A stretch of DNA of 64,000 nt from Deltaproteobacteria bacterium (lineage in GTDB: Bacteria; Desulfobacterota; GWC2-55-46; JAJCZF01), in NCBI GenBank assembly GCA_029262535.1, contig JAJCZF010000083.1, positions 37,094 through 101,093 on the forward strand, read 5' to 3'. The notes under the pieces were generated by a model. It had not been told where the DNA came from and made no database searches. It saw only the letters and a list, made by a program, of their open reading frames with translations. Within the stretch, counting starts at the first letter, position 1. Every line of letters begins with the position of its first letter. The position numbers and the translations under genes are program-made. Shown one piece after another: positions 48,358 through 62,659 of the stretch.

Positions 48358-50622
48358 TTAGTCGTCTATCTTCGATACGAAAGCGTCCTGGCCTCCGCCG
48401 TAACTCGACTGGTAGGCGTAGGTCGACTGAGGGTACTTGTCACTGTTACTAGAATCTGTGTTGCCACTGATATAGACCGTGCCGTCAACCGAACCTGTGT
48501 CGCAGGAGCCTATCGTAGCCAGCGTAATTTCATTGGCCCAATCGGTGCCGTCTCCGCCGAGGTATATGGAGTACTCAAGCGTAATAGTACCTATATCATA
48601 GTCGTCGTTAAATTTTGTTACGAAGGCGTCGACGCCTGTCTGGTCTCCAAAATTTGTCGAATCGGTATTTGGGAAATTGCTCGAAGCAGTCTTGCCGGTT
48701 ATATAGAACTCGTCGGTCGAGTCCACGGCAATACCGTAGGCATAGTCATCGTCCGTGCCGCCTATCAGGGTAGAGTAAACGAGGCTGTCCGAGCCCGACT
48801 CGCTCGTATCGAAGATTGAGACTAGCGCGTCAAGTCCACCCTGGTTTGAGCTATGGTATGCCCCGGTCGTCGTCGGATAGTCGTCAGTCGTACTGTCCTC
48901 ACTATATCCGGATACATAAATAAGACCGTCCGAGCCGAGCGTTAAGTCATATGACCATTCTTCTTCACTTCCCCCTATATATGTAGAGTAGAGCAGACCC
49001 GGAAGGCCGGCAGTACCCGTGTCAAACTTGGCCAAGTATATATCGCGATCTCCATAAAGCGAAGTATCATAAGCGTTTGTCGTTGTCGGGAAGTCACTGG
49101 ACTTGGTAGGGCCGCTCACATATGCGATCGATCCCTTTACGGCCACTCCTTGTGCAACATCACCGCCGGCGCCGCCAATATAACTGGTATATATAATACA
49201 GGAGTTATCAGAGGTATCGTATGTGCCGTCACAGTCGGACTTAACCTTAATGACAAAACCCTCCCAAATGGCGTAAGTTGAGCTATAGCTGGTATCAAAA
49301 CCCTTTCCGCTATTGAACATGGTATGCGAAGCCGTCAGGTAGCCGACGACATAGGCATTACCGTCATCGTCGAAATCAATGCCGCGGGCACTGCTTTCGT
49401 CACCCAAATCCATGCCATAGAGATAGATCAGCTCGCTACCGTCGTCATTGAGCTTTAAGACCGTAGCGTTAAAGGTATAATCCTGGGGATCATATGTGTC
49501 GTTAAGGTCGGCAAAGTTGTTGGAGCTGTTTTGTCCTATCGCGTAGACATTGCCGTCGCTGTCGACCTTCAGGTCGTATAGTGTGTCACTGCCGTCGCCG
49601 CCGATGTAGGTTGAATACTCGAGAGTAGCTGTGGCGTTAGTGAATATCTTCATCTTCGTTACGAACCAGTCGCATGTGCCGGCATTACTTTCCTGGTAGG
49701 CCCCGGTAGTAGTGGTGAAGCCGGTCCAGCTACAGGATGGCCCGCCGAGATAGATATAATCGTAGGTTCCGTCGTTATCCGAGGCGATGCCGTAGCCAAA
49801 CTCCCACGAATTTCCACCAAAATATGTCGAATAGTCAAGCGTCGGATCGATTATAAGCGGAAAATCTTTATCATATGACGCAACGACAAAGCCGTAGGCA
49901 TTGCCCTCTTTGCCCGCGCTCTCTACGAGCCTGAAAGCGCTTTCTATCTCAACCCTCTCGCCGTCTATTACCTGATAGGTAAAGGGCTTGTTATGGAGGT
50001 ACTTGCCTTTTTTCATCGATACTTCAAGCGCTCCACTCTCGGTAATAGATAACCCCTTGATGCCTTCATAAGATAGCACTACCGTGGCCGGGTCCGCGCC
50101 GGGTTTAACTATGACGTCGTACTCGACCGTATCTCCCTTACCGTAGAAGTGCATGTCCACGTCCTCGTAGACGCCCTTGTAGGTAATGCCCTCATAGGTC
50201 GGAATATTTTTATCCTTAAAGGAAGTCGTTATATAATTGATCTTGCCTTCTAGTTGTGTGCCGGGGGAGAGTGCTTTCATCGACATTGCACCGACAGGCA
50301 CGAGCTTTACCGTCGTGACCTCTACGTCTCCCTCAAGGGCCTTCATGGGATCGTTCATCGGGTTTGAGGCCGGTCCGTTCTTTAGCCTGAAAAAGCTCTG
50401 AAATATACCCTCTTCGGTAAAATATACGGACTTGTCATTCATCTTTGCATAGAATTTTACCGCCTTGTCCACCTGCCCCCTATTCTCGACGAAATATGTA
50501 GGGATTTTTCCGAGTTCACTTGCCGCGTCAGGGGCGCCCTTCTTCGCAAGCGCGTCCGTAGATGTAAAAGCAACGAGGGACGCAAGCACGGCAAGGGCCG
50601 TTACTACCAGTGATCTTTTCAT
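48358..50622 (-). CDS. Secreted SBBP-type beta-propeller repeat protein
   Basis: 754 aa with a signal peptide. At least 7 repeats of YSTYIGG.G.D....(I/V)..D..GN.Y..G.T.S.(D/N)FP.T..A. Confidence 0.7.
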   Translation of the reverse strand: MKRSLVVTALAVLASLVAFTSTDALAKKGAPDAASELGKIPTYFVENRGQVDKAVKFYAKMNDKSVYFTEEGIFQSFFRLKNGPASNPMNDPMKALEGDVEVTTVKLVPVGAMSMKALSPGTQLEGKINYITTSFKDKNIPTYEGITYKGVYEDVDMHFYGKGDTVEYDVIVKPGADPATVVLSYEGIKGLSITESGALEVSMKKGKYLHNKPFTYQVIDGERVEIESAFRLVESAGKEGNAYGFVVASYDKDFPLIIDPTLDYSTYFGGNSWEFGYGIASDNDGTYDYIYLGGPSCSWTGFTTTTGAYQESNAGTCDWFVTKMKIFTNATATLEYSTYIGGDGSDTLYDLKVDSDGNVYAIGQNSSNNFADLNDTYDPQDYTFNATVLKLNDDGSELIYLYGMDLGDESSARGIDFDDDGNAYVVGYLTASHTMFNSGKGFDTSYSSTYAIWEGFVIKVKSDCDGTYDTSDNSCIIYTSYIGGAGGDVAQGVAVKGSIAYVSGPTKSSDFPTTTNAYDTSLYGDRDIYLAKFDTGTAGLPGLLYSTYIGGSEEEWSYDLTLGSDGLIYVSGYSEDSTTDDYPTTTGAYHSSNQGGLDALVSIFDTSESGSDSLVYSTLIGGTDDDYAYGIAVDSTDEFYITGKTASSNFPNTDSTNFGDQTGVDAFVTKFNDDYDIGTITLEYSIYLGGDGTDWANEITLATIGSCDTGSVDGTVYISGNTDSSNSDKYPQSTYAYQSSYGGGQDAFVSKIDD

Positions 50623-50914
50623 AAAACACCTCTTCTTTTAAGGGGTTACACCCTCCAGCAGGTTTAACCGGAGGGTCTTCTCTGAACGTAAAAACGCCAA
50701 GAAAAAGCATCCTACGTCACGAATTCATACCACTTTTCAAGAGAAAACATATCGAGGTGTCGCTGTGGCATCAGCTACAAAGCCGATACTTTTTAAGATA
50801 TACAATTCAGCGGAAACTGTCAATACTTCATCCACTAAAACGTCAAAATCACACGAAGTTATTTAATTTAAAGAAAAACATATTAACAAGAAAGGGTTGC
50901 GAGATCACGACTCT

Positions 50915-52213
50915 CTAGCGTTCAGTCACTTGTGCCTCTCTCAATACCGTCGCCGTCGCTCCGTGGCGGCTTAGGGTGGCGGCTTTTTGGGCGGTTAGTC
51001 CGTCTTTTGTCGTGGCGGTGATATCCGCGCCCAACTCTATCAGGTACTTTACTACCTCGCTATGTCCGCCGATGGCGGCGACGATCAGGGGGGTGGCGTA
51101 GTTGCGTTTTTCGCGAGGCTCCAGCTCCGCGCCCGACTTAACCAGTAGCTTTACGGTATCGAGCGCCCCGGTCTGGGCGGCTATCAAGATGGGTGTCGCA
51201 CCGCTAGCGGCCCTGTGGTTCAGATCCGCCCCGGCCTCTAATAATAAAGTCACGACCTCTATGCCCGCATCGCTTTGAGCCGCAAGTATAAGCGCGGTCG
51301 CGCCGTTCAGGGCTTCGGCTGAGTGATCGGCTCCGGCATTGAGCAGCAATCTAACCGTATCGCTATGAGCGCCAAGCGCCGCTACCATCAGGGCGGTGAC
51401 ATTGCTGGTCGATTTTTTATTCACATCCGCGCCGCGCTCCAGGAGCAGCTTTACTAAATCCGAATAACCGCCGGACGAGGTCAGTATCAGGATCGTCTCG
51501 CCAGTATCGGCGCGTGCCGTTATATCGGCCCCGGCCTTAATGAGCAACCGGACGCATTCGGCTCGGTCGTTCTGCGCCGCCAGTACGAGGGCCGTATCGT
51601 TATTTAAGGATTTAAGATCAAGCTCCGCGCCCTTTTCTATAAGAAGAGAAAGAACGCCTTCATGACCGTTTTGAGCGGCGACCATCAGCGGGGTCGCGCC
51701 GTTTGTCAGGCGAGGATTAAGCTCTGCGCCCGCATCGACAAGCGCCCTTACTATTGGATCAAAGCCGTTTTGCGAAGCCATGAAGAGCGGTGTCGTTCCC
51801 TTAAGAGAGGCGATATTCAGATCCGCGCCCGACTTGATAAGCAGCTTTACTATCTCCTTGTGACCGCTCTCAGCGGCCAGCGTCAGAGGCGTAATACCTT
51901 TAAAGGTCTTTATATCGACATCGGCCCCGGCCTCAAGCAGAAGCCTTACGATCTCAAGATGACCGCTCTGCGCGGCGATAACGAGCGGGTTCACGCCGCC
52001 CTCGTCCACGACATTAAGATCAACACCCGACTCTATAAGCGAGCGCGCCTCGTCGGTATCAGCCAGGGCAACGGCCCTGATGAGCGGATTGGTCAAGAGA
52101 TCACCGCCCTCTGCGGCAGGCTCTGACGAGCATGAAGAGATCAGAAGTGAGAGAACGCAGAGTAAGGCTGCTACCCGCCGGATTGACGGCGTCAATATTT
52201 TATAAGATTGCAT
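50915..52213 (-). CDS. Ankyrin-repeat lipoprotein (about 12 ANK repeats)
   Basis: 432 aa. Lipobox LLISSC. It has regular 33-aa repeats G.TPL..AA..GH.E.V.LL...GAD.N. Confidence 0.85.
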   Translation of the reverse strand: MQSYKILTPSIRRVAALLCVLSLLISSCSSEPAAEGGDLLTNPLIRAVALADTDEARSLIESGVDLNVVDEGGVNPLVIAAQSGHLEIVRLLLEAGADVDIKTFKGITPLTLAAESGHKEIVKLLIKSGADLNIASLKGTTPLFMASQNGFDPIVRALVDAGAELNPRLTNGATPLMVAAQNGHEGVLSLLIEKGAELDLKSLNNDTALVLAAQNDRAECVRLLIKAGADITARADTGETILILTSSGGYSDLVKLLLERGADVNKKSTSNVTALMVAALGAHSDTVRLLLNAGADHSAEALNGATALILAAQSDAGIEVVTLLLEAGADLNHRAASGATPILIAAQTGALDTVKLLVKSGAELEPREKRNYATPLIVAAIGGHSEVVKYLIELGADITATTKDGLTAQKAATLSRHGATATVLREAQVTER

Positions 52214-52364: not shown

Positions 52365-53066
52365 CTACCACTCGTCATCCTCATCCTCTGGGGACTCGTC
52401 GCCGGGGCTGGAGATAGTTGGCCTGATGCGCTTGGGGACATCGCCGCTCATATCATATTTTACAAAGAACGTCTTTCCGTTCTCGACATTTCTTAGCCCC
52501 ACGCTCATAGAGTAACCTTCAAGCGTTTCAAGACTCGCATCAATGGGGAAGAAGAGAAAACCCTCGCTCACTGCGCCGGGCACGAGATTTCCGTCCTCAA
52601 GAATGCGTGACTCGTAATCGGCCTGGACCTTCTTGTTCGTCTTATGTACGTTATAGGCTGATATACCTAAGCCGACCGCACCGAAGGCTACGCCCCAGCC
52701 GCCGCTTCTAAGGTAGCTCTTCTTGGCCTTGCGTATGACCTCGTCTATGGAGAGCGGCTGGCACTCCTTTCCGTCAGGGTCGATCATCATGATCGACTGT
52801 CTGTCTATGACCAGTGTCTCGTCCGACTTATTGGAGAGTACCACCTGCATCGGAAGTATCTTGTGCCATATGAGATCTTCTCCAAAGTACTGCTTCACCT
52901 CATCCACGCCAACGTATGTCGTGCAGAAAAAGTCCACGCCATCCTTGGAGACCTTTTTCTCATAGGCGGAAGGAGAAGTTATTAGAGAAGCTGGTTTTAC
53001 GACGTTATGCGACGCGCAACCGGCGACCAACAGGGTAGCGATTAATAAAAATAGATACTTTTTCAC
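52365..53066 (-). CDS. Lipoprotein of unknown function with acidic C-terminal tail
   Basis: GTG 53066 lies 5 nt after GGAGG. Signal (M)KKYLFLLIATLLVAGC. C-terminus PGDESPEDEDDEW. Confidence 0.6.
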   Translation of the reverse strand: MKKYLFLLIATLLVAGCASHNVVKPASLITSPSAYEKKVSKDGVDFFCTTYVGVDEVKQYFGEDLIWHKILPMQVVLSNKSDETLVIDRQSIMMIDPDGKECQPLSIDEVIRKAKKSYLRSGGWGVAFGAVGLGISAYNVHKTNKKVQADYESRILEDGNLVPGAVSEGFLFFPIDASLETLEGYSMSVGLRNVENGKTFFVKYDMSGDVPKRIRPTISSPGDESPEDEDDEW

Positions 53067-53296
53067 ACAGACCTCCACGGGATTGGGGATTGAGTTGAAT
53101 AGAGCTACGCCGAAAGGGCGAACTTTTCCATATTTGTCACAAAGTTTGCCCGGAAGACTTAGAGAGTTCTTCGTGTGAAAGATAAATGTCGGGGTGAGTT
53201 GAAAGTAATGCCGGAGCTTTTAGATATTACAATATGGATAGGGGCATGTGCAAGTTAAAAATGAAGGAGAAATGCTCTGGAGTCTTGCGTGAGATA

Positions 53297-53359: not shown

Positions 53360-54187
53360 TTATCCCAACAACTTCAACGCCGACTGCGGCTGGAGGTTGG
53401 CCTGCGCCTGTATGGCGATGGAGGCCTGTTCCAGGATGGAGTTGCGTGTAAGGTTGGCGGTCTCGGAGGCGTAGTCGAGGTCGCGAATTCTCGATTCGGC
53501 GGCCTGATAATTTACATTTGCGGCGTTCAGGTTCTCTACAACCACGCCTATCCTGTTAGAGATCGCGCCGAATGATGTCCGGGCTTCGTTGACCTTGCTT
53601 ATGGCGGCGTCGATATCGTCTATGGCCGACTGCGCAAGCTCCTGAGTGCCGATACCGGCGGCGAGACCGCCCGATAGAGTGCCGCTCGAAAGGTCTGAGA
53701 ACTCGACATCGAGCTTGTCGCCAAGGCCTGAGTTAAAGCCGACCTGAAGCGATATCGTCGGTGTTGAGCCGTCTAATAGCTTCTTGCCGTCGAACTCGGT
53801 CGTTCCGGCGATACGGTCAAGCTCCTCGCGCAATTGGCCGAACTCGGCATCTATGGCCGCCCTGCCCTCGTCGCTGACAAGCCCGTTTGCGCCGCTTATT
53901 GCCAGTTCTTTCATGCGCGCAAGGATATCACCTATCTGAGACGCGCCGGAATCGGCCACCTCAAGGGCGCTCGTTCCGTCATTCGTATTTCTTAGAGCGG
54001 ACTGAATGCCACGGCTCTGGGCGCTCAATTGATTGGCGCGCGCAAGGCCCGCAGCGTCGTCTGCCGCGCTATTTACCCTCAACCCGGTCGAGAGCCTCGT
54101 GAGATTGACCTTGAGCTGGTTATTTACATTTTTTATATTACTGCCCGCTATAAGCGCGTTGAGATTGGTATTGATATTGATAGCCAT
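53360..54187 (-). CDS. fliC: Flagellin, copy 1
   Basis: MAININTNLNAL start at ATG 54187 (GGGGGAGA RBS). Conserved N-terminal (RLSTGLRVNSAADDAAGL) and C-terminal (...ILEQASIAIQAQANLQPQSALKLLG) flagellin domains. Confidence 0.9.
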   Translation of the reverse strand: MAININTNLNALIAGSNIKNVNNQLKVNLTRLSTGLRVNSAADDAAGLARANQLSAQSRGIQSALRNTNDGTSALEVADSGASQIGDILARMKELAISGANGLVSDEGRAAIDAEFGQLREELDRIAGTTEFDGKKLLDGSTPTISLQVGFNSGLGDKLDVEFSDLSSGTLSGGLAAGIGTQELAQSAIDDIDAAISKVNEARTSFGAISNRIGVVVENLNAANVNYQAAESRIRDLDYASETANLTRNSILEQASIAIQAQANLQPQSALKLLG

Positions 54188-54310
54188 GGTATTTCTCCCC
54201 CGATGGTTGTGGTGGTAGGGACTGCGCAAGATGCGCAGAGTCTATACCTTATTATCCCAGCTTCTAATTATTCTGTCAAACTTACCCGGCGCGGTTGACC
54301 GCGCCCTTCA

Positions 54311-55114
54311 CTATGGACGCTCGGTTGACTTTTGGGCACCGGGCATCGACTCGCGCGCCTGTCTCGAAGCGGCCTCATCGAGCTTCTTATCTATAGCGTC
54401 CGAACTCTTCCCTGTCGTAGAATAGGAGTGAGGCACGGAATTGTTATTCTTCATCGTCATATCTTGCCCGCTCACATCTGTGCGAAGCCCCCCGTACGTA
54501 TTTACACTATGGAGTTCACGCTCCGCCGGGTTGCGCGCGACCTTAAGCTGGTCGGCCTCCGGCAACGAACCCGCGTCAAAACCCTTAAAGGCCTTCTGCT
54601 TCGCATTGCCGAACTTTCTCAGTCCTTCATAAGAGGTAATATCGACCCCTTTGGACTCTGCGCGTTCAGCCTGAAAACCCTTACGCTGCGCGTCACGTTC
54701 GATATCGTCAAGGCGCTCCATAGCCTTATCATTGCCATTGCCAGCGAGATTCTCAACCCTACCGGACTTTAAGGAAGAGGCGATTAGCGAGGCCTTCTCA
54801 TCAACGGTTGATATGACCTTTGAGACAAAGCCGATATCCGCAATCTTCGTTGATCTCTTGCCCGATGAGCCGCCGGCCTTTAGTTCGGTCAGGTTTGCCG
54901 GTCCTTCGGGTTTCTTCTTTATAGACCTGCTATCTTCAAGGGACCTTAAGGCCTCGGTCGATATTTTGACCTTGTCGGACATGGTCGCCTTGTAACCCTT
55001 CGGGTTACCGGTACTAAGCCCCCTCTTGGAGAGATTTGTCCTGTCGAAGGTCTCAACCTTGGACGCAAGCTCTCCGAGCCTTGAGCCGTTATCTACAGGC
55101 GAACTTATTGCCAT
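54311..55114 (-). CDS. Hypothetical Ser/Gly/Lys-rich protein in the flagellin locus
   Basis: 267 aa with a strong AGGAGG RBS, preceded by a sigma-28-type promoter. No motif recognised. Confidence 0.55.
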   Translation of the reverse strand: MAISSPVDNGSRLGELASKVETFDRTNLSKRGLSTGNPKGYKATMSDKVKISTEALRSLEDSRSIKKKPEGPANLTELKAGGSSGKRSTKIADIGFVSKVISTVDEKASLIASSLKSGRVENLAGNGNDKAMERLDDIERDAQRKGFQAERAESKGVDITSYEGLRKFGNAKQKAFKGFDAGSLPEADQLKVARNPAERELHSVNTYGGLRTDVSGQDMTMKNNNSVPHSYSTTGKSSDAIDKKLDEAASRQARESMPGAQKSTERP

Positions 55115-55239
55115 TAAAAAAAGCCTCCTAACATTCTGTCAAATACCGGTAAAGTATAATTAAATCAAGCTGTTGCCACCTTGAAGGCGTGGCGGCCTGC
55201 ATTATATAGGGGTCATCCCGTAAATTACCCCTAAATGCT

Positions 55240-55266
55240 TTATCGGACTCATAAAAAATAACTTTA
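55240..55266 (-). promoter_or_regulatory. Sigma-28 (FliA) promoter candidate
   Basis: The minus strand reads TAAAGTTA-N11-TCCGATAA against the consensus TAAAGTTT-N11-GCCGATAA (7/8 + 7/8, exact spacing). Confidence 0.55.
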
Positions 55267-55319
55267 GCGCTTTTTTAGATTTTTTATCTTTTTTTTTCAA
55301 AAACCCTCTAACTAACGGT

Positions 55320-56183
55320 TCAGTCCTTATTACCGTTGGACGTAGCGGGCGAGACCACGCCCTCAAGAAGGCCGAGCGCGACCCTGGGCTGTATATTTGC
55401 CTGCGCAAGCACCGATATGCCGGCGCTGAGAAGTATATTATTCTTGGTATAACGTACTGTTTCTTCGGCGAAATCTACGTCGCGTATGCGTGACTCGGCC
55501 CTAAGAAAGCCTGTTCTTGTAGATCCGAGATTATCGACTGCGGCCTTCAGGCGATTTGTCGCGGTGCCGAATGTCACCCGTGCGCTACCGACCGTGCTTA
55601 TTGCGCTATCAATTAAACTCAAGGCCGCGGCGGCCCCGGTCTGTGTAGATATCTGACCCGCGGCGAGGCTCAAGACATTGGCGCCTATATCAACGAGATC
55701 GATGCCTATCCTGTCGGCTGAGCTGCCGGCGTAACCGACCTGAAGACTGATCACCCCGCCGGCGGTCGAAAGCAGTTTATTGCCGTCGAACTCTGTGACC
55801 TGCGCTATCCTCTCCACCTCTCCCCTTAGCTCGTCCCACTCCGTGCTATATGCGCTCCGGGCCGAGGCGCTTATCGTGCCCGTAGCGGAACTCACGGCGA
55901 GCTCGTTCATCCTCGTAAGCAGTTCCGATATCTTTTCCGCGCTCTTGTCGGCTATCTCAAGCGCGCTTATACCGTCGTTCGTATTACGCAGGGCCGCCTG
56001 AATGCCGCGCGACTTGAGCCTCAGATGGTCTGCCCTGCCAAGCCCCGCCGGATCGTCCGAAGAGTCGTTAATCCTATAGCCGCTCGAAAGCTTGCGCGCG
56101 CTATCGGTCAGGCGAGAGAGCGTTGAAACAACATTATCAGACGCAATGAGAGCGGGGATATTGGTATTTATGGTCAAACTCAT
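55320..56183 (-). CDS. fliC: Flagellin, copy 2
   Basis: MSLTINTNIPAL start at ATG 56183 (AAGGTG RBS). Conserved flagellin N and C domains (KLSSGYRINDSSDDPAGL; ...LLSAGISVLAQANIQPRVALGLL). Confidence 0.9.
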   Translation of the reverse strand: MSLTINTNIPALIASDNVVSTLSRLTDSARKLSSGYRINDSSDDPAGLGRADHLRLKSRGIQAALRNTNDGISALEIADKSAEKISELLTRMNELAVSSATGTISASARSAYSTEWDELRGEVERIAQVTEFDGNKLLSTAGGVISLQVGYAGSSADRIGIDLVDIGANVLSLAAGQISTQTGAAAALSLIDSAISTVGSARVTFGTATNRLKAAVDNLGSTRTGFLRAESRIRDVDFAEETVRYTKNNILLSAGISVLAQANIQPRVALGLLEGVVSPATSNGNKD

Positions 56184-56454
56184 CTTAAAACACCTTAAAA
56201 CGTACAACTATATAAGTTGAACGAAGACGTGGACCGAAACCAAAGCTCAGACAAAGAATATCTATATAAAAAAACTTTTTTATTAGCGGGTTATTACCGG
56301 ATGAGACAAATTAAGTATTCCATAAAATGAGGGTTTTGTCTAGTGCTTACGGGTATGGAATGACTACCTGATATTATTGATTAAAGATGTTGCGGTAAGG
56401 GTTTGTCAAGCCGCACGTATATGTGTTAGAGTAGAGGTTCTCATTTACAAGCTA

Positions 56455-56483
56455 TTTAAATAGCAATATATATATGCTATAAT
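56455..56483 (+). promoter_or_regulatory. Candidate sigma-70 promoter of the five-gene cassette
   Basis: TTTAAA (56455-56460), 17 bp, TATAAT (56478-56483), within a 300-nt AT-rich intergenic region. Confidence 0.4.
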
Positions 56484-56509: not shown

Positions 56510-58651
56510 ATGAATACTAAAGACTTCGTAAAAGAGATAAAGCTTCATATAGAGGCCAGGTATCCGGTCCTTTGGCTCGTAAGCTTTGAAGAGCGACGCG
56601 TTGAAAAGGTCGTTGAAGAGCTTTGCAACAAGAGCGATACGCACTACTGGTCCTGGTCGGTCTCGCGCGGCCTTCGTAGCGGTAAGGACAGAAAGAAGGT
56701 CGAAAAGGTTGGACGCGAAAAGATCCTCACGACCATAGAAGAGAAGATAACAAAGAACGAAAATGTCAATAATCTCTTCGTCTTAAAGGATATCGCAACC
56801 TACTTCCACTCGCACGAGTTCCTGCGCAAGTTCCGCGATATACCGGAAATAACCGAAGAAAATCGCGCGCTTAATACCGTATGCATCCTTAGCCCGACGC
56901 TTAGCGAGATCCCGCCGGAGCTTGAAGAGGATATCGTCATAATCGAGCTGTCTCTGCCCGAATATGAAGAGATAGAAGAGCTAGTCCTAAAGACCTTTGG
57001 ACATATGATACCGAAAGAGTGGCACGATTCGACGCGCTCGGTCCTCTATAAGTCGCTTCAGGGCCTTTCTATGGATAATATCCGACGTGTTGTCAGAAAA
57101 GCGGTTAGCATCAACGATAATGTGCTAGACGAAAACTGCATCCAGTTCATACAGGACGAGAAACAACAGATAATAAAGAAGCAGCAGATACTCGACTACT
57201 ACCCGCACCGCGAGTCGATGGAGCATATCGGCGGCCTAGACGAGATAAAGAAGTGGTTCAACGAGCGTGAGCACGTATTTCGCCTCTCGAACGAGCGGAT
57301 CAACGGACTCGGCCTCGACATACCAAAAGGCCTGCTTCTCATAGGCGTACCCGGTTCGGGTAAATCTCTCTGCTGTAAGGCGCTTTCGGGCATATGGAAC
57401 CTTCCGCTCTTACGCATGGATGTCGGGCGTATATTCGGCTCTACCGTTGGTGAGTCGGAGAAGAATATACGCCGCTGCATCCAGCTGGCCGAGGCCGTAA
57501 GCCCGTGTATCCTCTGGATAGACGAGATAGACAAGGCATTTGGCGGCATACAGGGCTTTCAGGGCGACTCGGGCACGCAGCTGCGAGTATTCGGCACATT
57601 CATCACATGGCTTCAGGAGAAGGAAAAACCTGTCTTCGTCATCGCCACGGCGAACGAACCAAAGAACCTTCCGCCCGAACTATGGCGTAAGGGGCGTTAC
57701 GACGAGGTATTCTTTGTGGACCTGCCGAGCGCCGACGAGCGCGAGGATATCTTTAGGATACACCTCGAACGCAAAAACCAGGAGGTATCGCGCCTGAACC
57801 TTACCGACTTTGCCCAAAATAGCCAGGGCTATACCGGGGCCGAGATCGAACAGGCCGTAAAGGACGCCATCGTCGCCAACTTCAACAAGGTTCACGATGG
57901 CAGGAACTTCGAAGAGGCCGAAGACTTCATCAACGATATGGATACGATTGCCGTATCGCAGGACGAGATACTTGAGTCACTCAGGAATATCACGCCTCTA
58001 TCGGCCCTCAAGAAGGAAGAGATAGACGAGCTGCGCAAGTGGTCGCACCAGCGCGCACGCCCCGCCTCTCGCTCGCTCTTTCATCAGAGGGCGGAGTCAC
58101 TCAGCCCCGAAGAGCGTCGCAACCTCTCCATACACGAGGCGGGTCACACCATAACCATGTGGTATCATTTCAAAAAAGGTCCGGCATTCATGTCGATCGA
58201 TACCTACAAGGAATACGGCTCCTACCTGCCGATGGACGAGTCTTCCATGAAATCCTCCACAAAACGGGACCTTGAGAGGGAGATCGGCATAATACTCGGC
58301 GGCATGGTCGCAGAAGACGAGATGGGCGGGCTCGACTCGCGCACGGTCGGGGCCTCGCACGACCTCTCACAGGCCACGTCGCGCGCCAAGCAGATGGTCG
58401 TTGAATACGGTTTTGGCGATAATATCAGAAATACCAGCCTCATGGAGGTGCAGGACTACGCCCTCATATCGGGCCGCGAGATTTTGGAAGATATACAGAA
58501 GATAATAGATACGGCAAGGGAAGAGACCGAGGAGATAATAAACGAGAACAAAGAGGTCTTGGAAGCTCTCGTTCTATTACTCATCGAAAGCGTGCTCTTG
58601 AATCACGATGATATAGTACGCTTCTTTGCAAAACACCCTCTAAAGGACTGA
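56510..58651 (+). CDS. Soluble AAA+ ATPase (Ycf46-like N-terminus) fused to an FtsH-type M41 peptidase-like domain
   Basis: 713 aa with no TM segment. N-terminal IEARYPVLWLVSFEERRVE; Walker A GVPGSGKS (57344-57367); Walker B ILWIDEID; KGRYDEVFFVDLP; C-terminal HEAGH (58133-58147) and VGASHDLSQAT, as in FtsH. Confidence 0.85.
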   Translation: MNTKDFVKEIKLHIEARYPVLWLVSFEERRVEKVVEELCNKSDTHYWSWSVSRGLRSGKDRKKVEKVGREKILTTIEEKITKNENVNNLFVLKDIATYFHSHEFLRKFRDIPEITEENRALNTVCILSPTLSEIPPELEEDIVIIELSLPEYEEIEELVLKTFGHMIPKEWHDSTRSVLYKSLQGLSMDNIRRVVRKAVSINDNVLDENCIQFIQDEKQQIIKKQQILDYYPHRESMEHIGGLDEIKKWFNEREHVFRLSNERINGLGLDIPKGLLLIGVPGSGKSLCCKALSGIWNLPLLRMDVGRIFGSTVGESEKNIRRCIQLAEAVSPCILWIDEIDKAFGGIQGFQGDSGTQLRVFGTFITWLQEKEKPVFVIATANEPKNLPPELWRKGRYDEVFFVDLPSADEREDIFRIHLERKNQEVSRLNLTDFAQNSQGYTGAEIEQAVKDAIVANFNKVHDGRNFEEAEDFINDMDTIAVSQDEILESLRNITPLSALKKEEIDELRKWSHQRARPASRSLFHQRAESLSPEERRNLSIHEAGHTITMWYHFKKGPAFMSIDTYKEYGSYLPMDESSMKSSTKRDLEREIGIILGGMVAEDEMGGLDSRTVGASHDLSQATSRAKQMVVEYGFGDNIRNTSLMEVQDYALISGREILEDIQKIIDTAREETEEIINENKEVLEALVLLLIESVLLNHDDIVRFFAKHPLKD

Positions 58652-58659
58652 GGTGAGCC

Positions 58660-58998
58660 ATGTCATTTTTCACGGTTCTTAAGACCGAAATATCGAATAA
58701 GGATAATATGATCCTCGCCCTAAGATCTCTTGAAGAGTCGGGCGAGATACAGCGCCTCACCATCAACGAGGCAAAAGAGTCCATCGAAGTCGACCGCGAC
58801 GGCGACATCATGACGATTGAGAAGGAAAAGACCGGCACATACAATGTCGCAGGCAACAATACCGCCGTCGAACCCTTTTCAAAGAGACTCAAACAGATCT
58901 ACGCCTTGCAGACGATAAAGGAAAACCTGCCGCTCGACTTCGAGATATCGGAAGAGAGCGAGATAGCCGGAGAGATTCGGATTCTCCTAAAGGGATAA
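58660..58998 (+). CDS. DUF1257 (Ycf35)-like small protein
   Basis: 112 aa with GAGGTGAG RBS 8 nt after the upstream stop. The N-terminus MSFFTVLKTEISNKDNMILALRSLE resembles the remembered DUF1257 start MSHFTTIKT.I.D...L..AL.DLG. Confidence 0.65.
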   Translation: MSFFTVLKTEISNKDNMILALRSLEESGEIQRLTINEAKESIEVDRDGDIMTIEKEKTGTYNVAGNNTAVEPFSKRLKQIYALQTIKENLPLDFEISEESEIAGEIRILLKG

Positions 58999-58999
58999 T

Positions 59000-59200
59000 A
59001 TGGATAGAGAGATAAATATACGCATACTGCCGGACGGCAAGGTCGAAATCGACTCGACCGTCTTTAACGACTGCACAGAAGTCGCAAACCACCTCTCGAA
59101 ACATATCGGACAGGTCGAGTCCTTTCGGGTCAAAGAGGAACACGACCACTCCGACTCGAAGCTCGACAAGGGGGTAAAGGTGGATAAAAGCGATGGCTGA
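59000..59200 (+). CDS. DUF2997-like small protein
   Basis: 66 aa starting 1 nt after the upstream stop. INIRILPDGKVEIDS..F.DCTEV...L...IG resembles the remembered DUF2997 pattern. Confidence 0.55.
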   Translation: MDREINIRILPDGKVEIDSTVFNDCTEVANHLSKHIGQVESFRVKEEHDHSDSKLDKGVKVDKSDG

Positions 59201-59774
59201 CCAAGATAACGATATACGCATCAAGGCCCATGCCGTGCTCATGTCGAGCGACGTAAACGGGCCGGGAAGGCGCGCCGTTATATTCTTTCAGGGCTGCCCC
59301 TTCGACTGTGACGGCTGCTTCAACCCGGAGACACACTCCGAGTCGGACGGATATATGGTCAGCCCCAAAGAGATACTCGACGGCCTGCGTACCGACGAGA
59401 TAGAGGGTATCACCGTTAGCGGCGGCGACCCCTTTATGCAACCCGGCCCTCTTACCGAACTTCTGCGCCTTGCGCGCGACGAGTACGGGCTATCGACCGT
59501 CGTCTATACAGGTTACACGATAGAGCTCTTAAGAAAGAAAGCCGAGCTTGCAAGGCCGCTCGAATATATAGACGTTCTCATAGACGGCGGATTCGTGAGC
59601 CACCTGATGGAGCCCACGCTGCTTGCGCGCGGCTCGACCAACCAGCGCTTTCACTTTCTGACCGACTATTATGAGATAGGCGACTTCTACATGCCCTCAA
59701 AGGCCGAGATCGTAATACGGCCGGACGGCACCATTACCGGCACCGGCTTTAGAGAGACCCTTGGTCACCATTAA
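59193..59774 (+). CDS. NrdG/PflA-type radical-SAM activating enzyme
   Basis: 193 aa overlapping the upstream gene by 8 nt. NGPGRRAVIFFQGCPFDCDGCFNPETH carries CX3CX2C (59295-59318), and GITVSGGDPF is the SAM-binding GGE-like motif. Confidence 0.8.
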   Translation: MADQDNDIRIKAHAVLMSSDVNGPGRRAVIFFQGCPFDCDGCFNPETHSESDGYMVSPKEILDGLRTDEIEGITVSGGDPFMQPGPLTELLRLARDEYGLSTVVYTGYTIELLRKKAELARPLEYIDVLIDGGFVSHLMEPTLLARGSTNQRFHFLTDYYEIGDFYMPSKAEIVIRPDGTITGTGFRETLGHH

Positions 59775-59857: not shown

Positions 59858-62659
59858 ATGACCGAAGCTACCCCTGACGAGACATTTGAAGATATAAAGG
59901 CCATCTCCGACACCAAGGAGCGGAAGCTCGCCATGTTGCGCCTGCTCAAAGAGCTGGACGACTCCCCTTCAAACGCGCCTATATATGCCGGAGCCAAGGA
60001 GATCTTTTGTGCCCTTCCAGAGGAGGACGAGAAACGCGCGGCCCTGCACGAACTCATAATCTCGCTACCGATGGAGTCCTACTTTCTCGATATCTATCAC
60101 GACATCATATTCATCCTGCTCGACTCTGCCGAAAGGATCGAAGGCCAGAGATACCGTAAGTCTCAGCTCCTGCGTATCGCCAGCGAGATTCCTCTGGAGC
60201 CTGAATTTTTTCCTCTATTTAAAGACGCCATTAATCGCACCATCACGGCCTCTAACGCCTGCGACGAACTATTCGTAAGAAGGTACGCCCTCTTTAATAT
60301 AGCCGAACGCCTGCCCCTGGACGAAGAGTTTACCGAGATGCGCTACCGCGCCCTCTCGCTCGCGCTCGGCCTCTCAGACGAAGCACCGGAGCGCAGAGAC
60401 TCATGGGAGCTACTTGCATTTGAGCTACCCAAGGTATGCGACTATACTTTTTTCGTAGATAATACATTTCTGGGCATTGCCATCAGGATGCCCAAGACCG
60501 GTGTCTTTCGCCCCCTCTATATGCAGGCCATTGAGATTGCGCTTGAGGCCTCCGACCATATGGAGGAGCCCTATTTTAAAAAATACGCCCTGCTATACAT
60601 AGCGAAATCCCTTCCTAAGGAAGAGGTCTTCGAACCTCTCTACAGAAGGGCGCTCGAAAAGACCTGTGAAGCGGCAATGGATATCCGCGATCCTTTCATC
60701 AACCACATCACAGTGCTTGAGATACTCGAAGTATTACCAAAGACAGAGGCCTATTACCCGCTGATACTAACGCTCATAGAAAAGGTCCTGCCATTTTACT
60801 CGGTTAAGAGCAGGATAGACGACGTGGCGCTCCTGGACGTAATAGACTACATCATCATCGCCGAAGAACGCAAGATCGGCGAATCCAAAAAGAATCGCTA
60901 TACGCGCGAATCATACGCCAGAACATTTGCAAAAGTCCTGCTCTCCTTCGGTCTCGACCTGACCGACGTGCGCTTTATCGAACCTCTAAAACCCTATACG
61001 CATGTATGGATAAAACCCCCGGAACTTCGCGAAGCGGCCAGCAAGGTCGTCAACCACCTCGAAGGGCTAAAGACCCTCTACCACGGCGCAGAGCTACTGC
61101 GTCCCTTAATGGTATCGGAGAAACATCGCGGCGAAGAAGGCTTGTACCGGGGTATGAAAGAGGACGCCACGATGCGCGAGGCGAGCGACACAATCGTCAT
61201 CGACATCGGCGCGTCAAATACCATCATCATGAAAAAACGCCTCAAAGGGCGCGCAAACTATGTAGAGTTCAACGAGATATCGAGACGTTTCGGAGATGTC
61301 GTCACCATCCCTACCGTCTACAACGAACGCACCGACACCATCGGCACGGCGGCCTTAGAAGACGACGCCTCCCGTAAAGGTGTTAACATAAAAAAACTGC
61401 TTATCGGCGGCAACCCGCGCGGACGCGACCAGATGGCCCATTTCTTTAACCTCTTATTCGAGCGCATAAAGGAAGAACTCCAGCCGCGCGGCTGGAGAAA
61501 GATCATCTCAAGCGCACCGAGTGAGACATTTTATATAACCGTGCCGGTCGGCCTCACCGACTACAAAAACCGCCTCAAGGATATCATCACCGCCGAGGCA
61601 AAGGGCATACAGGCCGAGTTTATCGAAGAGCCGCTGGCCGCCGCCATAGGTTATCAGGTCGCCGAAGAGAGCGAAAAGCTTGTTATGCTGATGGACTTCG
61701 GCGGCTGTACGCTCGACGTCATGGCGCTTCGCATCTCGAGCGGGACCGTTCATGTCGTAGCCAAACCGGATCGCTCACAGCTCGTCGGCGGTCAGGATAT
61801 CGATTACTGGTTGGCCGAATACCTTGGCGAACGCGCCGAGCTGTCGGTCATCGGCAGCGAGCCGCACGCGGCCCTCATCAAAAAGGCGGAAGCGCTGAAG
61901 ATCGCTCTCTCGTCTCACCATGAAGTCCCCTTCGTATGGGAAGGTAGTGAACTCTTCAAGGTAACGCTACAGGATTTTGAAGAGCTACTTCAGGACCGCG
62001 ACTTCTACCGCACCGTGGACCGCGCCGCCTCCTTCGTGCTGGCAAAGTGCGCCAAGGTCGGCATCAAGACCGAGAACTTCGAGGCCGTGCTCCTAACGGG
62101 CGGCTCTAGCCAGATACCGTCCTTCAAGGAGAAGGTCGGCCATCTCTTCCCCGCGCTAAGGCGGACAAACGCGATATACGACCACAGCCCGCTATCTGCC
62201 GTCGCAACCGGCGCGGCCTACTACGGCACGCGCGACGTGGTAGACCGCCACCTCGCAATCGCATATGCCGTAAAATATGTAACCGGCGAAAAGAAGATCG
62301 CTCACGAACTGATACTGGAAAAAGGCGAACCCCTGCCCTTCGAACGCACCTTCCGCGCAGACCCCGCCCAAACACTCGGAGAACAGAACCAGATCTCAAT
62401 TGAACTATACGAGATCCCCGACGCCCTGATAACGAGACGCTGGGAGCTGACCGGCGGATTCGAATATATAAAACAGGTAATAAAAGAGTCCGAAGATACC
62501 GAAGATATAGAACTAAAACCGCTAAAGATAATCACCCTGCCCTACAACCGCGAGATCACCGGCGAAGAGGAGGTAACCTTCGTACTCGACGAAACCGGCC
62601 GCCTCAAGATCAAATACGATAAAGGTAAAGAAGTCGATTCGGGGATAAGGCTGCAGTAA
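59858..62659 (+). CDS. Helical-repeat domain fused to an Hsp70/DnaK-like ATPase with lidless beta substrate-binding-like domain
   Basis: 933 aa. Hsp70 motifs IVIDIGASNT, FYITVPVG, EEPLAAAIGY, MLMDFGGCTLDV, GGQDID, VLLTGGSSQIPSF and PLSAVATGAAYYG. The N-terminal 430 aa contain about 8 repeats of a ~40-aa unit. Confidence 0.8.
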   Translation: MTEATPDETFEDIKAISDTKERKLAMLRLLKELDDSPSNAPIYAGAKEIFCALPEEDEKRAALHELIISLPMESYFLDIYHDIIFILLDSAERIEGQRYRKSQLLRIASEIPLEPEFFPLFKDAINRTITASNACDELFVRRYALFNIAERLPLDEEFTEMRYRALSLALGLSDEAPERRDSWELLAFELPKVCDYTFFVDNTFLGIAIRMPKTGVFRPLYMQAIEIALEASDHMEEPYFKKYALLYIAKSLPKEEVFEPLYRRALEKTCEAAMDIRDPFINHITVLEILEVLPKTEAYYPLILTLIEKVLPFYSVKSRIDDVALLDVIDYIIIAEERKIGESKKNRYTRESYARTFAKVLLSFGLDLTDVRFIEPLKPYTHVWIKPPELREAASKVVNHLEGLKTLYHGAELLRPLMVSEKHRGEEGLYRGMKEDATMREASDTIVIDIGASNTIIMKKRLKGRANYVEFNEISRRFGDVVTIPTVYNERTDTIGTAALEDDASRKGVNIKKLLIGGNPRGRDQMAHFFNLLFERIKEELQPRGWRKIISSAPSETFYITVPVGLTDYKNRLKDIITAEAKGIQAEFIEEPLAAAIGYQVAEESEKLVMLMDFGGCTLDVMALRISSGTVHVVAKPDRSQLVGGQDIDYWLAEYLGERAELSVIGSEPHAALIKKAEALKIALSSHHEVPFVWEGSELFKVTLQDFEELLQDRDFYRTVDRAASFVLAKCAKVGIKTENFEAVLLTGGSSQIPSFKEKVGHLFPALRRTNAIYDHSPLSAVATGAAYYGTRDVVDRHLAIAYAVKYVTGEKKIAHELILEKGEPLPFERTFRADPAQTLGEQNQISIELYEIPDALITRRWELTGGFEYIKQVIKESEDTEDIELKPLKIITLPYNREITGEEEVTFVLDETGRLKIKYDKGKEVDSGIRLQ

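What the first reader, a model, noticed from the sequence alone, without database searches (positions are those of the whole stretch)
56510..58651. FtsH-like protease without membrane anchor and with a Ycf46-type N-domain
FtsH-family M41 peptidases are normally membrane-tethered. This 713-aa protein has no hydrophobic helix. It has a ~240-aa N-terminal domain unrelated to FtsH, then AAA+, a ~120-aa linker, and a peptidase-like module that keeps HEAGH and the third-ligand Asp context. Ycf46-type ATPases as I remember them lack a protease domain, so this is an unusual fusion.
Basis: partly seen in the sequence, partly recalled or inferred. Interest (0 to 1): 0.6.

Follow-up and report, generated by a model that had tools for sequence, protein, structure and literature searches.

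The report
Soluble Ycf46-FtsH fusion protease
This gene encodes a membrane-free, probably active ATP-driven zinc protease: a complete Ycf46-type ATPase (a plastid and cyanobacterial protein of unknown function) fused to an FtsH-type peptidase, sitting first in a conserved five-gene operon, which gives a testable clue to what Ycf46 proteins do.

Summary
ORF 56510-58651 (+) encodes 713 aa with no hydrophobic helix, an intact AAA+ ATPase domain and a full-length Peptidase_M41 domain.

- **Zinc site:** HExxH and the third-ligand Asp are kept in 156 of 156 relatives checked, and in a sister lineage only 34% identical.
- **Ycf46 part:** residues 6-523 align end to end (36% identity) with a 493-aa chloroplast-encoded Ycf46-type protein. 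The protein is therefore a whole Ycf46 plus M41, joined by a linker of about 8 residues, not about 120.
- **N-domain:** it is not unrelated to FtsH. Structure prediction, fold search and profile comparison show a degenerate AAA+ module without a P-loop. The layout is pseudo-AAA, then active AAA, then M41.
- **Pore loop:** pore loop 1 has Thr where translocases carry an aromatic residue.
- **Operon:** the gene is first in a tightly packed operon with DUF1257-like, DUF2997-like, NrdG-like radical-SAM and Hsp70-like genes. The operon was found wherever enough flanking DNA was held.
- **Distribution:** single copy in 75 of 96 genomes of its class. The genome also has a normal membrane FtsH.
- **Literature:** no paper describing the fusion was found in the held library.

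Best reading: a soluble hexameric AAA+ zinc protease whose clients are set by its operon partners. This is a new variant of a known kind.

The parts
56455..56483 (+). Promoter-like site (TTTAAA, 17 nt, TG-TATAAT), 27 nt upstream of the ATG
   Evidence: 10 of 12 matches, extended -10 TG; sequence read. This is a consensus match only.
56510..58651 (+). Whole ORF, 713 aa: soluble Ycf46-M41 fusion protease
56510..57217 (+). Residues 1-236: Ycf46-type N-domain, a degenerate AAA+ module without a P-loop (S25-F-E-E-R-R30 where the P-loop should be; E27, E28, R30, W49, G54, D94, R106 invariant)
   Evidence: AF2 model pLDDT 89.5, pTM 0.83. Foldseek finds only AAA+ modules, TMq 0.5-0.62. hhalign against the protein's own AAA domain gives probability 87.6%, E 3.5e-6, in register. 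Invariant columns.
57218..57937 (+). Residues 237-476: active classic-clade AAA+ module. Walker A GVPGSGKS 279-286, Walker B D338-E339, sensor-1 N382, Arg fingers R393 and R396, four-helix lid 408-476
57434..57451 (+). Pore loop 1, F309-G-S-T-V-G314: Thr at the position that is aromatic in FtsH (MFVG) and Cdc48 D2 (WYG)
   Evidence: FGSTVGES in 115 of 120 family members; I or L at this position in most M41-less relatives.
57938..58078 (+). Residues 477-523: Ycf46 C-terminal tail (PLS...LRxW...RARPAS). M41-less Ycf46 proteins end here
58100..58618 (+). Residues 531-703: Peptidase_M41 domain
58133..58147 (+). HEAGH 542-546: two zinc-binding His and the catalytic Glu
58358..58360 (+). D617: third zinc ligand, in GASHDL
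58660..58998 (+). DUF1257-like (Ycf35-type) protein, 112 aa. Invariant MSF N-terminus, C-terminal Gly nearly invariant. Starts 8 nt after the protease stop codon
59000..59200 (+). DUF2997-like protein, 66 aa. Starts 1 nt after the previous stop codon and overlaps the radical-SAM start by 8 nt
   Evidence: (PF11211, E 3.3e-4, profile positions 1-45 of 47).
59193..59774 (+). NrdG-like radical-SAM enzyme, 193 aa (C35-x3-C39-x2-C42, GGDP)
   Evidence: (TIGR02491, 116.9 bits against a cut-off of 126.1). It is an orphan.
59858..62659 (+). Hsp70/actin-fold ATPase, 933 aa, with an N-terminal helical-repeat region of about 470 aa

Best explanation
The ORF encodes a cytoplasmic ATP-dependent zinc metalloprotease. 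It arose once, when an FtsH-type M41 peptidase domain was joined to the C-terminus of a complete Ycf46-type ATPase.

**Shown**
- Each subunit has three modules:
  - a degenerate AAA+ domain without a P-loop (like an inactive D1);
  - a classic AAA+ domain with every ATPase motif intact;
  - an M41 domain with an intact HExxH and Asp zinc site.
- There is no membrane anchor.
- The gene is first in an operon with DUF1257-like, DUF2997-like, NrdG-like radical-SAM and Hsp70-like genes.

**Inferred, by analogy with FtsH, Yme1 and Cdc48**
- It forms a three-tier hexamer.
- ATP hydrolysis in the middle ring pulls polypeptides through the central pore into the M41 chamber, where they are cut.
- The pseudo-AAA ring serves as the docking tier.
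- The two small proteins found with Ycf46-type ATPases in an archaeon, bacteria and a phage (DUF1257 and DUF2997) act there as adaptors, regulators or first clients.
- The orphan radical-SAM enzyme and the private Hsp70 prepare or deliver the clients.
- Because pore loop 1 carries Thr and not an aromatic residue, grip is probably weak. The enzyme is then more likely to handle a narrow set of delivered or pre-unfolded clients than to do bulk quality control, which the genome's canonical FtsH can do.
For: - **Domains and motifs:**
- **Zinc ligands:** kept in 120 of 120 family members and 36 of 36 locus-encoded copies, and in the 34%-identical sister lineage P0138 (HEASH, GSSNDI).
- **ATPase motifs:** Walker A and B, sensor 1 and both Arg fingers are invariant across the fusion, M41-less and plastid groups.
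- **Ycf46 part:** colinear alignment of residues 6-523 with all of a 493-aa chloroplast-encoded protein, E 9e-103.
- **Fold match:** the whole model matches FtsH cytosolic regions (E 2.9e-18, about 500 columns) and Cdc48 D1-D2 (560-580 columns).
- **N-domain is an AAA+ fold:**
- **Single fusion event:** the two M41-bearing lineages form one clade on the Ycf46 part alone, SH-aLRT 97.
- **Operon:** gaps of 8 and 1 nt, an 8-nt overlap and an 83-nt gap. The four downstream genes follow in 30 or more of the 38 fusion loci, and misses coincide with short flanks. The radical-SAM gene also follows in the divergent lineage.
- **Distribution:** 75 of 96 genomes and 42 of 53 genera of the class, single copy, no internal stops.
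- **Separate FtsH:** a canonical FtsH is present in the same genome.
Against:
- The M41 domain is the least conserved part: 75% mean column identity and 14% invariant columns, against 89% and 59% for the AAA domain.
- The FtsH 'IIPRG' strand motif is not kept.
- Pore loop 1 lacks the aromatic residue that FtsH needs for degradation, which I state from established knowledge of E. coli F228.
- The hexamer and the inter-ring geometry were not modelled. The full-length model has pTM 0.58 and low confidence at residues 340-405.
- The roles assigned to the partner proteins rest on gene order alone.
Confidence: 0.65

Rival explanations
1. The protein is an unfoldase or remodeller only. The M41 domain would serve as a hexamerisation platform or binding module without cutting, as in the plastid FtsHi pseudo-proteases, and the protein would work like M41-less Ycf46.
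For: - The M41 domain is the least conserved module.
- The pore-1 aromatic residue is missing.
- The IIPRG motif is lost.
- FtsHi/Ycf2 complex chains appear among the fold matches.
- Most of the Ycf46 family works without a protease.
Against: - H542, E543, H546 and D617 are kept in 156 of 156 sequences, and in a lineage only 34% identical overall.
- From established knowledge, FtsHi proteins have lost the HExxH motif, which is how they were recognised as inactive. This protein keeps it.
Confidence: 0.15
2. It is an anti-phage or conflict system: an ATPase-protease effector comparable to IetA/IetS (Iet, also written Ite), carried with accessory genes.
For: - PADLOC IetA models hit residues 261-511, E 9.9e-32, and NCBIfam IteA gives 6.2e-28.
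- The Ycf46-type AAA, DUF1257 and DUF2997 trio is carried by Rhizobium phage RHph_I4.
Against: - The IetA and IteA hits cover only the generic AAA module and fall far below the family cut-off (98 bits against 510).
- None of the four partners hits a defence model convincingly.
- The gene is single copy and present in 75 of 96 genomes of the class at 67-80% identity, the pattern of a vertically inherited core gene and not of a patchy defence island.
- The upstream neighbours are flagellins, and the genes tested upstream were found in none of the related loci.
Confidence: 0.05
3. It is a dedicated maturation protease. Its only substrates would be operon products, for example cutting or recycling DUF1257, DUF2997 or the radical-SAM enzyme's modified target, and it would not degrade other proteins.
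For: - Gene linkage is strict.
- A weak-grip pore loop would suit a few delivered clients.
- The activase is an orphan: there is no glycyl-radical enzyme in 36 of 39 genomes of the order, so its target is probably local.
Against: - No cleavage site or glycyl-radical motif was found in any operon protein.
- This is a narrower form of the best explanation and cannot be told apart from it by sequence.
Confidence: 0.15

Closest known systems
FtsH, Yme1 and AFG3L2 (MEROPS M41 AAA+ proteases)
   Same: - An AAA+ module is followed by an M41 peptidase on one chain.
- The HExxH and Asp zinc site is present.
- The M41 profile is matched over its whole length.
- The fold matches FtsH cytosolic structures 4ww0 and 2ce7.
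   Different: - There is no transmembrane or periplasmic part.
- The ATPase is of the Ycf46 group: 25% identity to the genome's own FtsH, and a GESE sequence context where FtsH has GVGA.
- An extra pseudo-AAA domain sits in front.
- A 46-residue Ycf46 tail is inserted between the lid and M41.
- Thr replaces the pore-1 Phe.
- The IIPRG motif is absent.
Ycf46 (plastid ycf46; cyanobacterial Synpcc7942_0417, and slr0374 from memory)
   Same: - The two proteins are colinear end to end: residues 6-523 against 3-493, 36% identity.
- They share the same N-domain (N-domain alone against the P0147 cluster, E 3.9e-18).
- Both have a non-aromatic pore loop and the same C-terminal tail.
- Both are linked to DUF1257 (Ycf35) and DUF2997 genes.
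   Different: - This protein carries a C-terminal M41 peptidase.
- Its operon also holds a radical-SAM enzyme and an Hsp70-like ATPase.
- It lives in non-photosynthetic bacteria known only from metagenome-assembled genomes. Cyanobacterial Ycf46 is reported as a KaiC-interacting, stress-induced ATPase (PMC13683863) with no known biochemical activity.
Cdc48, p97 and VAT (type II AAA+ unfoldases)
   Same: - They give the best sequence matches for the active AAA domain (VAT 5vc7, E 3.2e-56).
- The model aligns over both D1 and D2 (560-580 columns, TMq up to 0.40).
   Different: - The D1 equivalent has no P-loop.
- There is no N-terminal substrate-recruiting domain of the Cdc48 type.
- The protease is fused to the ATPase, not docked as a separate 20S particle.
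FtsHi and Ycf2 pseudo-protease motor of plastids
   Same: M41-fold domains are attached to AAA+ modules and used in an unusual complex (fold matches 8xku and 8xqw).
   Different: From established knowledge, FtsHi proteins are membrane-bound and have lost the zinc motif. This protein is soluble and keeps it.

Membership tests
Peptidase family M41 (Pfam PF01434 / MEROPS M41) | Profile match above the curated cut-off over the whole domain | tested here: met
   75.2 bits against a cut-off of 29.9, profile positions 3-189 of 191. The genome-wide scan gives 74.3 bits.
Peptidase family M41 (Pfam PF01434 / MEROPS M41) | HExxH zinc-binding and catalytic motif | tested here: met
   HEAGH at 542-546. HExxH is present in 156 of 156 relatives.
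Peptidase family M41 (Pfam PF01434 / MEROPS M41) | Third zinc ligand, the Asp of the GAxxDL helix | tested here: met
   D617 aligns with the Asp of GAENDL in PDB 2di4 and 6gcn. It is kept in all relatives.
Peptidase family M41 (Pfam PF01434 / MEROPS M41) | ATP- and zinc-dependent proteolytic activity | not testable with these tools
   This needs purified protein.
FtsH proper (TIGR01241 / PRK10733 equivalogs) | N-terminal transmembrane anchor(s) | tested here: not met
   The highest 19-residue hydropathy mean is 1.30, in a stretch holding charged residues. Only 5 codons lie upstream of the ATG.
FtsH proper (TIGR01241 / PRK10733 equivalogs) | Equivalog score above the cut-off, that is an FtsH-type ATPase | tested here: not met
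   179 bits against 600, and 122 bits against 1008. Identity to the genome's own FtsH is 25%.
Ycf46-type AAA+ ATPases | Full-length colinear similarity to a plastid-encoded Ycf46 protein, N-domain included | tested here: met
   - Residues 6-523 align with residues 3-493 of a chloroplast-encoded 493-aa Aureococcus protein, E 9e-103.
- That protein is called Ycf46 by exclusion. Red-lineage plastids encode three AAA families, CbbX, FtsH and Ycf46 (PMC4810238). It has no M41 domain, and from memory it is too long for CbbX.
- No source names it ycf46 outright.
Ycf46-type AAA+ ATPases | About 490-550 aa with no domain after the RARxAS tail | tested here: not met
   Here 190 more residues (M41) follow the tail. 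Only 2 of 104 AAA-bearing cluster representatives do this.
Ycf46-type AAA+ ATPases | Gene linkage with DUF1257 (Ycf35) and DUF2997 | tested here: met
   - Both follow the gene here.
- Bona fide DUF1257 and DUF2997 genes flank M41-less relatives in L039 and L041, and in a phage.
- The window's own copies match the Pfam models only weakly (E about 0.01 and 3.3e-4).
Classic-clade AAA+ translocases | Walker A, Walker B, sensor 1 and two Arg fingers | tested here: met
   G279-S286, D338-E339, N382, R393 and R396 are all invariant.
Classic-clade AAA+ translocases | Aromatic-hydrophobic-Gly pore loop 1 | tested here: not met
   The loop is T312-V-G. Thr is found in 120 of 120 fusion members and I or L in most M41-less relatives. 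F309, three residues upstream, is invariant.
IetA/IteA anti-phage ATPase | Equivalog-level match | tested here: not met
   98 bits against a cut-off of 510, over the AAA module only.

The most novel reading that the evidence does not exclude
The Ycf46, DUF1257 and DUF2997 module would be a previously unrecognised protein-processing machine that radical or iron-sulfur chemistry switches on. In this class of bacteria it would be seen in its most complete form:
- the orphan NrdG-type radical-SAM enzyme chemically marks or activates one of the small partners, or a client held by the private Hsp70;
- the marked protein docks on the pseudo-AAA ring;
- the client is unfolded and destroyed in the fused M41 chamber.

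This would assign a biochemical function to plastid and cyanobacterial Ycf46 and Ycf35, and would add a new family of soluble AAA+ proteases to the known bacterial ones (Clp, HslUV, Lon, FtsH, the proteasome).
Probability: 0.15. Interest if true: 0.85.

Novelty: new variant of a known kind. Interest (0 to 1): 0.62.

Why it matters
- **A soluble M41 protease.** To my knowledge every characterised M41 peptidase is membrane-anchored, and membrane tethering is treated as part of how the family finds substrates. A natural, conserved, soluble M41 protease with a different ATPase and an extra pseudo-ATPase ring would widen the known set of AAA+ protease designs.
- **A clue to Ycf46 and Ycf35.** Both are among the long-standing conserved plastid and cyanobacterial reading frames with no known biochemistry. 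A lineage that fused a protease to Ycf46 argues that the family engages polypeptides. That gives a direct experiment: does Ycf46 unfold or hand over proteins, and are DUF1257 and DUF2997 its adaptors or its clients?
- **An orphan activase.** Linkage to an orphan NrdG-like radical-SAM enzyme raises the question of what a glycyl-radical-type activase does in genomes without glycyl-radical enzymes.

Tried and rejected
- **N-domain sequence searches.** Pfam and the PDB sequence search gave nothing meaningful. Only structure prediction with fold search, and a profile-profile comparison, revealed the AAA+ fold.
- **Confirming the 'Ycf46' label by name.** Sources give only the generic COG0464 name, or wrongly call the plastid protein FtsH. 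I fell back on argument by exclusion.
- **Glycyl-radical motif.** A search for [RK][VIL]xG[FYW] in the five operon proteins found none.
- **PADLOC defence models.** Only generic AAA, viperin-like and Hsp70 hits appeared. The defence reading was rejected on distribution.
- **Canonical FtsH that lost its anchor.** Rejected: the ATPase is of the Ycf46 group and the genome has its own FtsH.
- **Independent fusions.** Rejected: the two M41 lineages form one clade.
- **Phage relatives.** Most phage hits cover only the AAA module and tail. One phage carries the trio but no radical-SAM gene.
- **Literature.** Searches for a soluble M41 protease, or for this gene set, found nothing relevant in the held library.
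Full report
**The observation**

ORF 56510-58651 on the + strand is real and encodes 713 aa. Only five in-frame codons separate the ATG from the upstream stop (open frame 718 aa). A purine-rich ribosome-binding site and a promoter-like site (TTTAAA-17-TGcTATAAT at 56455-56483) precede the ATG. No N-terminal membrane anchor has therefore been cut off by a wrong start.

The highest 19-residue Kyte-Doolittle mean is 1.30, in a stretch that holds Glu, His and two Asp. The genome's canonical FtsH shows two obvious hydrophobic segments.

Pfam finds three domains:
- AAA at 275-404, E 3.8e-30.
- The AAA lid at 429-456.
- Peptidase_M41 at 531-703, E 7.9e-21, 75.2 bits against a cut-off of 29.9, covering 3-189 of 191 profile positions.

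The C-terminal 222 residues alone align over about 180 residues to solved FtsH, AFG3L2 and Yme1 protease domains (E about 3e-14). HEAGH lies on HEAGH, and D617 of GASHDL lies on the third-ligand Asp of GAENDL.

**Conservation of the catalytic residues**

The protein belongs to a large, tight family. More than 6000 database proteins matched at E <= 0.001; the best 120 are about 711 aa long and about 70% identical, and come from MAGs labelled Deltaproteobacteria, Thermodesulfobacteriota and Nitrospirae.

- In 120 members, H542, E543, H546 and D617 are invariant. So are Walker A, Walker B (D338, E339), sensor-1 N382 and both arginine fingers R393 and R396.
- Three apparent exceptions in a pattern count were misses of my pattern, not losses: HEIGH, VESSNDL and GGSQDL.
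- A second lineage, P0138 (716 aa), is only 34% identical overall. It is colinear and keeps HEASH and GSSNDI.
- The M41 domain is nevertheless the least conserved module: 75% mean column identity and 14% invariant columns, against 89% and 59% for the AAA domain.

**What the first two-thirds is**

- Residues 6-523 align end to end with the whole of a 493-aa chloroplast-encoded protein of Aureococcus (residues 3-493, 36% identity, E 9e-103).
- That protein has AAA as its only Pfam domain. Red-lineage plastids encode three AAA families, CbbX, FtsH and Ycf46 (PMC4810238). It has no M41 domain, and from memory it is too long for CbbX, so by exclusion it is Ycf46. No source names it so outright.
- The N-domain alone finds 1192 cluster representatives in 1.84 billion proteins. 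Those that also carry the AAA domain have a median length of 517 aa, and only 2 of 104 carry M41.
- Fourteen genomes from other phyla, including a Promethearchaeota (Asgard) archaeon, Chloroflexi, Acidobacteriota, Georgenia and Brevibacillus, match only residues 1 to about 520.
- Against the genome's own FtsH the protein is 25% identical. It has a 46-residue insertion between the lid and M41, which is exactly the conserved Ycf46 tail PLS...LRxW...RARPAS.

The protein is thus a whole Ycf46 plus M41. The '~120-aa linker' is the lid plus this tail, and the true connector is about eight residues.

**The N-domain is a degenerate AAA+ module**

- Modelled alone it is confident (pLDDT 89.5, pTM 0.83) and shows a beta-alpha-beta core followed by a helical bundle.
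- Foldseek against the PDB returns AAA+ modules throughout the 50 best matches listed: RFC subunits, TRIP13/PCH-2, Orc1/Cdc6, proteasomal Rpt, RuvB, Vps4, FtsH and p97. Matches span 184-282 columns, mostly 224 or more, with TMq mostly 0.5-0.62 at 9-15% identity.
- A profile-profile comparison of the N-domain with the protein's own AAA domain gives probability 87.6%, E 3.5e-6, and the alignment is in register:
  - NLFVLKD on the Walker B strand;
  - CILSP..IPPEL on ATAN..LPPEL;
  - LSLPEYEE on VDLPSADE;
  - QGLSMDNIRRV on QGYTGAEIEQA.
- Where the P-loop should be, the family has S-F-E-E-R-R, with E27, E28 and R30 invariant from bacteria to plastids. Nucleotide binding there is unlikely; this last point is inference.
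- The full model aligns with Cdc48 across D1 and D2 (560-580 columns) and with FtsH cytosolic regions (E 2.9e-18).

The layout is therefore pseudo-AAA, then active AAA, then M41.

**A deviation worth noting**

Pore loop 1 reads F-G-S-T-V-G. Thr sits where FtsH has Phe (MFVG) and Cdc48 D2 has Trp-Tyr. Thr is found in 120 of 120 fusion members. M41-less relatives mostly have Ile or Leu there. F309, three residues upstream, is invariant in all. From established knowledge the aromatic residue is needed for degradation by E. coli FtsH. I read the Thr as a sign of weak grip and a narrow or delivered set of clients, not as proof of inactivity.

**Genomic context**

The gene is followed by four more on the same strand:

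| Gene | Coordinates | Junction with the previous gene |
|---|---|---|
| DUF1257-like, 112 aa | 58660-58998 | 8-nt gap |
| DUF2997-like, 66 aa | 59000-59200 | 1-nt gap |
| NrdG-like radical-SAM, 193 aa | 59193-59774 | 8-nt overlap |
| Hsp70-fold protein, 933 aa | 59858-62659 | 83-nt gap |

- **DUF1257-like:** an HMM built from its orthologues hits bona fide DUF1257 proteins that sit next to M41-less relatives (1.4e-7).
- **DUF2997-like:** PF11211, E 3.3e-4, profile positions 1-45 of 47.
- **Radical-SAM enzyme:** it has a CxxxCxxC cluster motif and scores 116.9 bits against a 126.1-bit cut-off for TIGR02491.
- **Hsp70-fold protein:** its best family matches are HscA and DnaK.
- **Conservation of the set:** among the 38 fusion loci, the DUF1257-like, radical-SAM and Hsp70-like genes were found in 30 or more, and misses coincide with short flanks. 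The six upstream and one downstream window genes tested were found in none of the related loci.
- **Divergent lineage:** the radical-SAM gene again follows the protease there.
- **M41-less relatives:** an Asgard archaeon has DUF1257, DUF2997, the AAA gene and the radical-SAM gene in a row. Rhizobium phage RHph_I4 carries the AAA gene, DUF1257 and DUF2997.
- **Cyanobacteria:** published work notes a conserved DUF2997-ycf35-fed7 cluster (PMC4284462). It also reports a stress- and ppGpp-dependent three-gene ycf46 operon whose ATPase interacts with KaiC (PMC13683863).

**The radical-SAM enzyme is an orphan**

The genome, 88% complete, has neither a Gly_radical domain nor NrdD. Among 39 genomes of the order, all but this one at least 95% complete, 3 have a Gly_radical domain and none has NrdD above the cut-off. 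No operon protein has a glycyl-radical motif.

**Distribution**

- The fusion is present in 75 of 96 species genomes of its class: 51 of 63 high-quality genomes and 42 of 53 genera. It is single copy, has no internal stops and is 67-80% identical.
- In a 301-genome sample of the phylum, 13 genomes have the fusion and about 42 have only M41-less relatives.
- On a tree built from the Ycf46 part alone, the two M41-bearing lineages form one clade (SH-aLRT 97), so one fusion event suffices.
- This is the pattern of a vertically inherited core gene, not of a defence island. The genome keeps a normal FtsH as well (241.6 bits for M41, two membrane segments).

**Mechanism**

Shown:
- the three-module soluble architecture;
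- intact ATPase and zinc sites;
- strict operon linkage;
- the orphan status of the activase.

Inferred by analogy with FtsH, Yme1 and Cdc48:
- a three-tier hexamer;
- ATP-driven threading into the M41 chamber;
- the pseudo-AAA ring as the docking tier for DUF1257 and DUF2997;
- the radical-SAM enzyme and Hsp70 preparing or delivering clients.

I put 0.65 on 'active soluble AAA+ zinc protease with operon-defined clients'. The main rival, at 0.15, is a non-cutting remodeller that uses M41 as a scaffold. The invariance of all four catalytic residues across 34% identity argues against it.

**Novelty and limits**

I found no paper in the held library describing a soluble M41 protease or this gene set. 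Earlier notes of this scan on sister genomes reached the same outline. I had found the operon before reading them, and I re-derived the points I use.

Limits:
- no multimer modelling;
- no access to model coordinates;
- the Ycf46 label rests on exclusion.

Noticed in passing
window 59193-59774: NrdG-like radical-SAM activase in a lineage that almost entirely lacks glycyl-radical enzymes. A Gly_radical domain is found in 3 of 39 genomes of the order, and NrdD above the cut-off in 0 of 39. Its substrate is unknown and probably lies within the operon.
   Followed up: partly
window 59858-62659: 933-aa protein with about 470 aa of helical repeats, each ending in an 'LP' motif, followed by a complete Hsp70/actin-fold nucleotide-binding domain (IDIGASNT, DFGGCTLD, LTGGSSQIP) and a short beta-rich C-terminus. 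HscA is its best family hit.
   Followed up: partly
window 58660-58998: The DUF1257-like protein has an invariant MSF N-terminus, and its C-terminal Gly is nearly invariant. A eustigmatophyte plastid-genome preprint (PMC13060386) reports an MSH N-terminus in essentially all the plastid Ycf35 proteins it examined. A conserved extreme N-terminus suggests it has a function.
   Followed up: no
L055 165-2943: A divergent AT-rich lineage of the same fusion (P0138, 34% identity) keeps HEASH and the Asp, and is followed directly by an NrdG-like radical-SAM gene. The contig is too short to show the other partners.
   Followed up: partly
L056 3566-6888 (Rhizobium phage RHph_I4): A phage carries a Ycf46-related AAA ATPase (557 aa), a 212-aa unknown protein, and annotated DUF1257 and DUF2997 genes. 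The core trio is therefore also mobile.
   Followed up: partly
L039 6350-9128 (Promethearchaeota MAG): An Asgard archaeon has DUF1257, DUF2997, a 520-aa Ycf46-type ATPase and an NrdG-like radical-SAM gene in a row, followed by a peroxiredoxin gene.
   Followed up: partly
window 53360-56207 (- strand): Two flagellin genes (289 and 295 aa) are separated by a 267-aa ORF with no Pfam match. A further unassigned 237-aa ORF lies at 52365-53078.
   Followed up: no
window 48358-52213 (- strand): A 432-aa protein made almost wholly of ankyrin repeats sits next to a 754-aa DUF7948 and beta-propeller (SBBP) protein. Ankyrin arrays of this size are uncommon in free-living bacteria.
   Followed up: no
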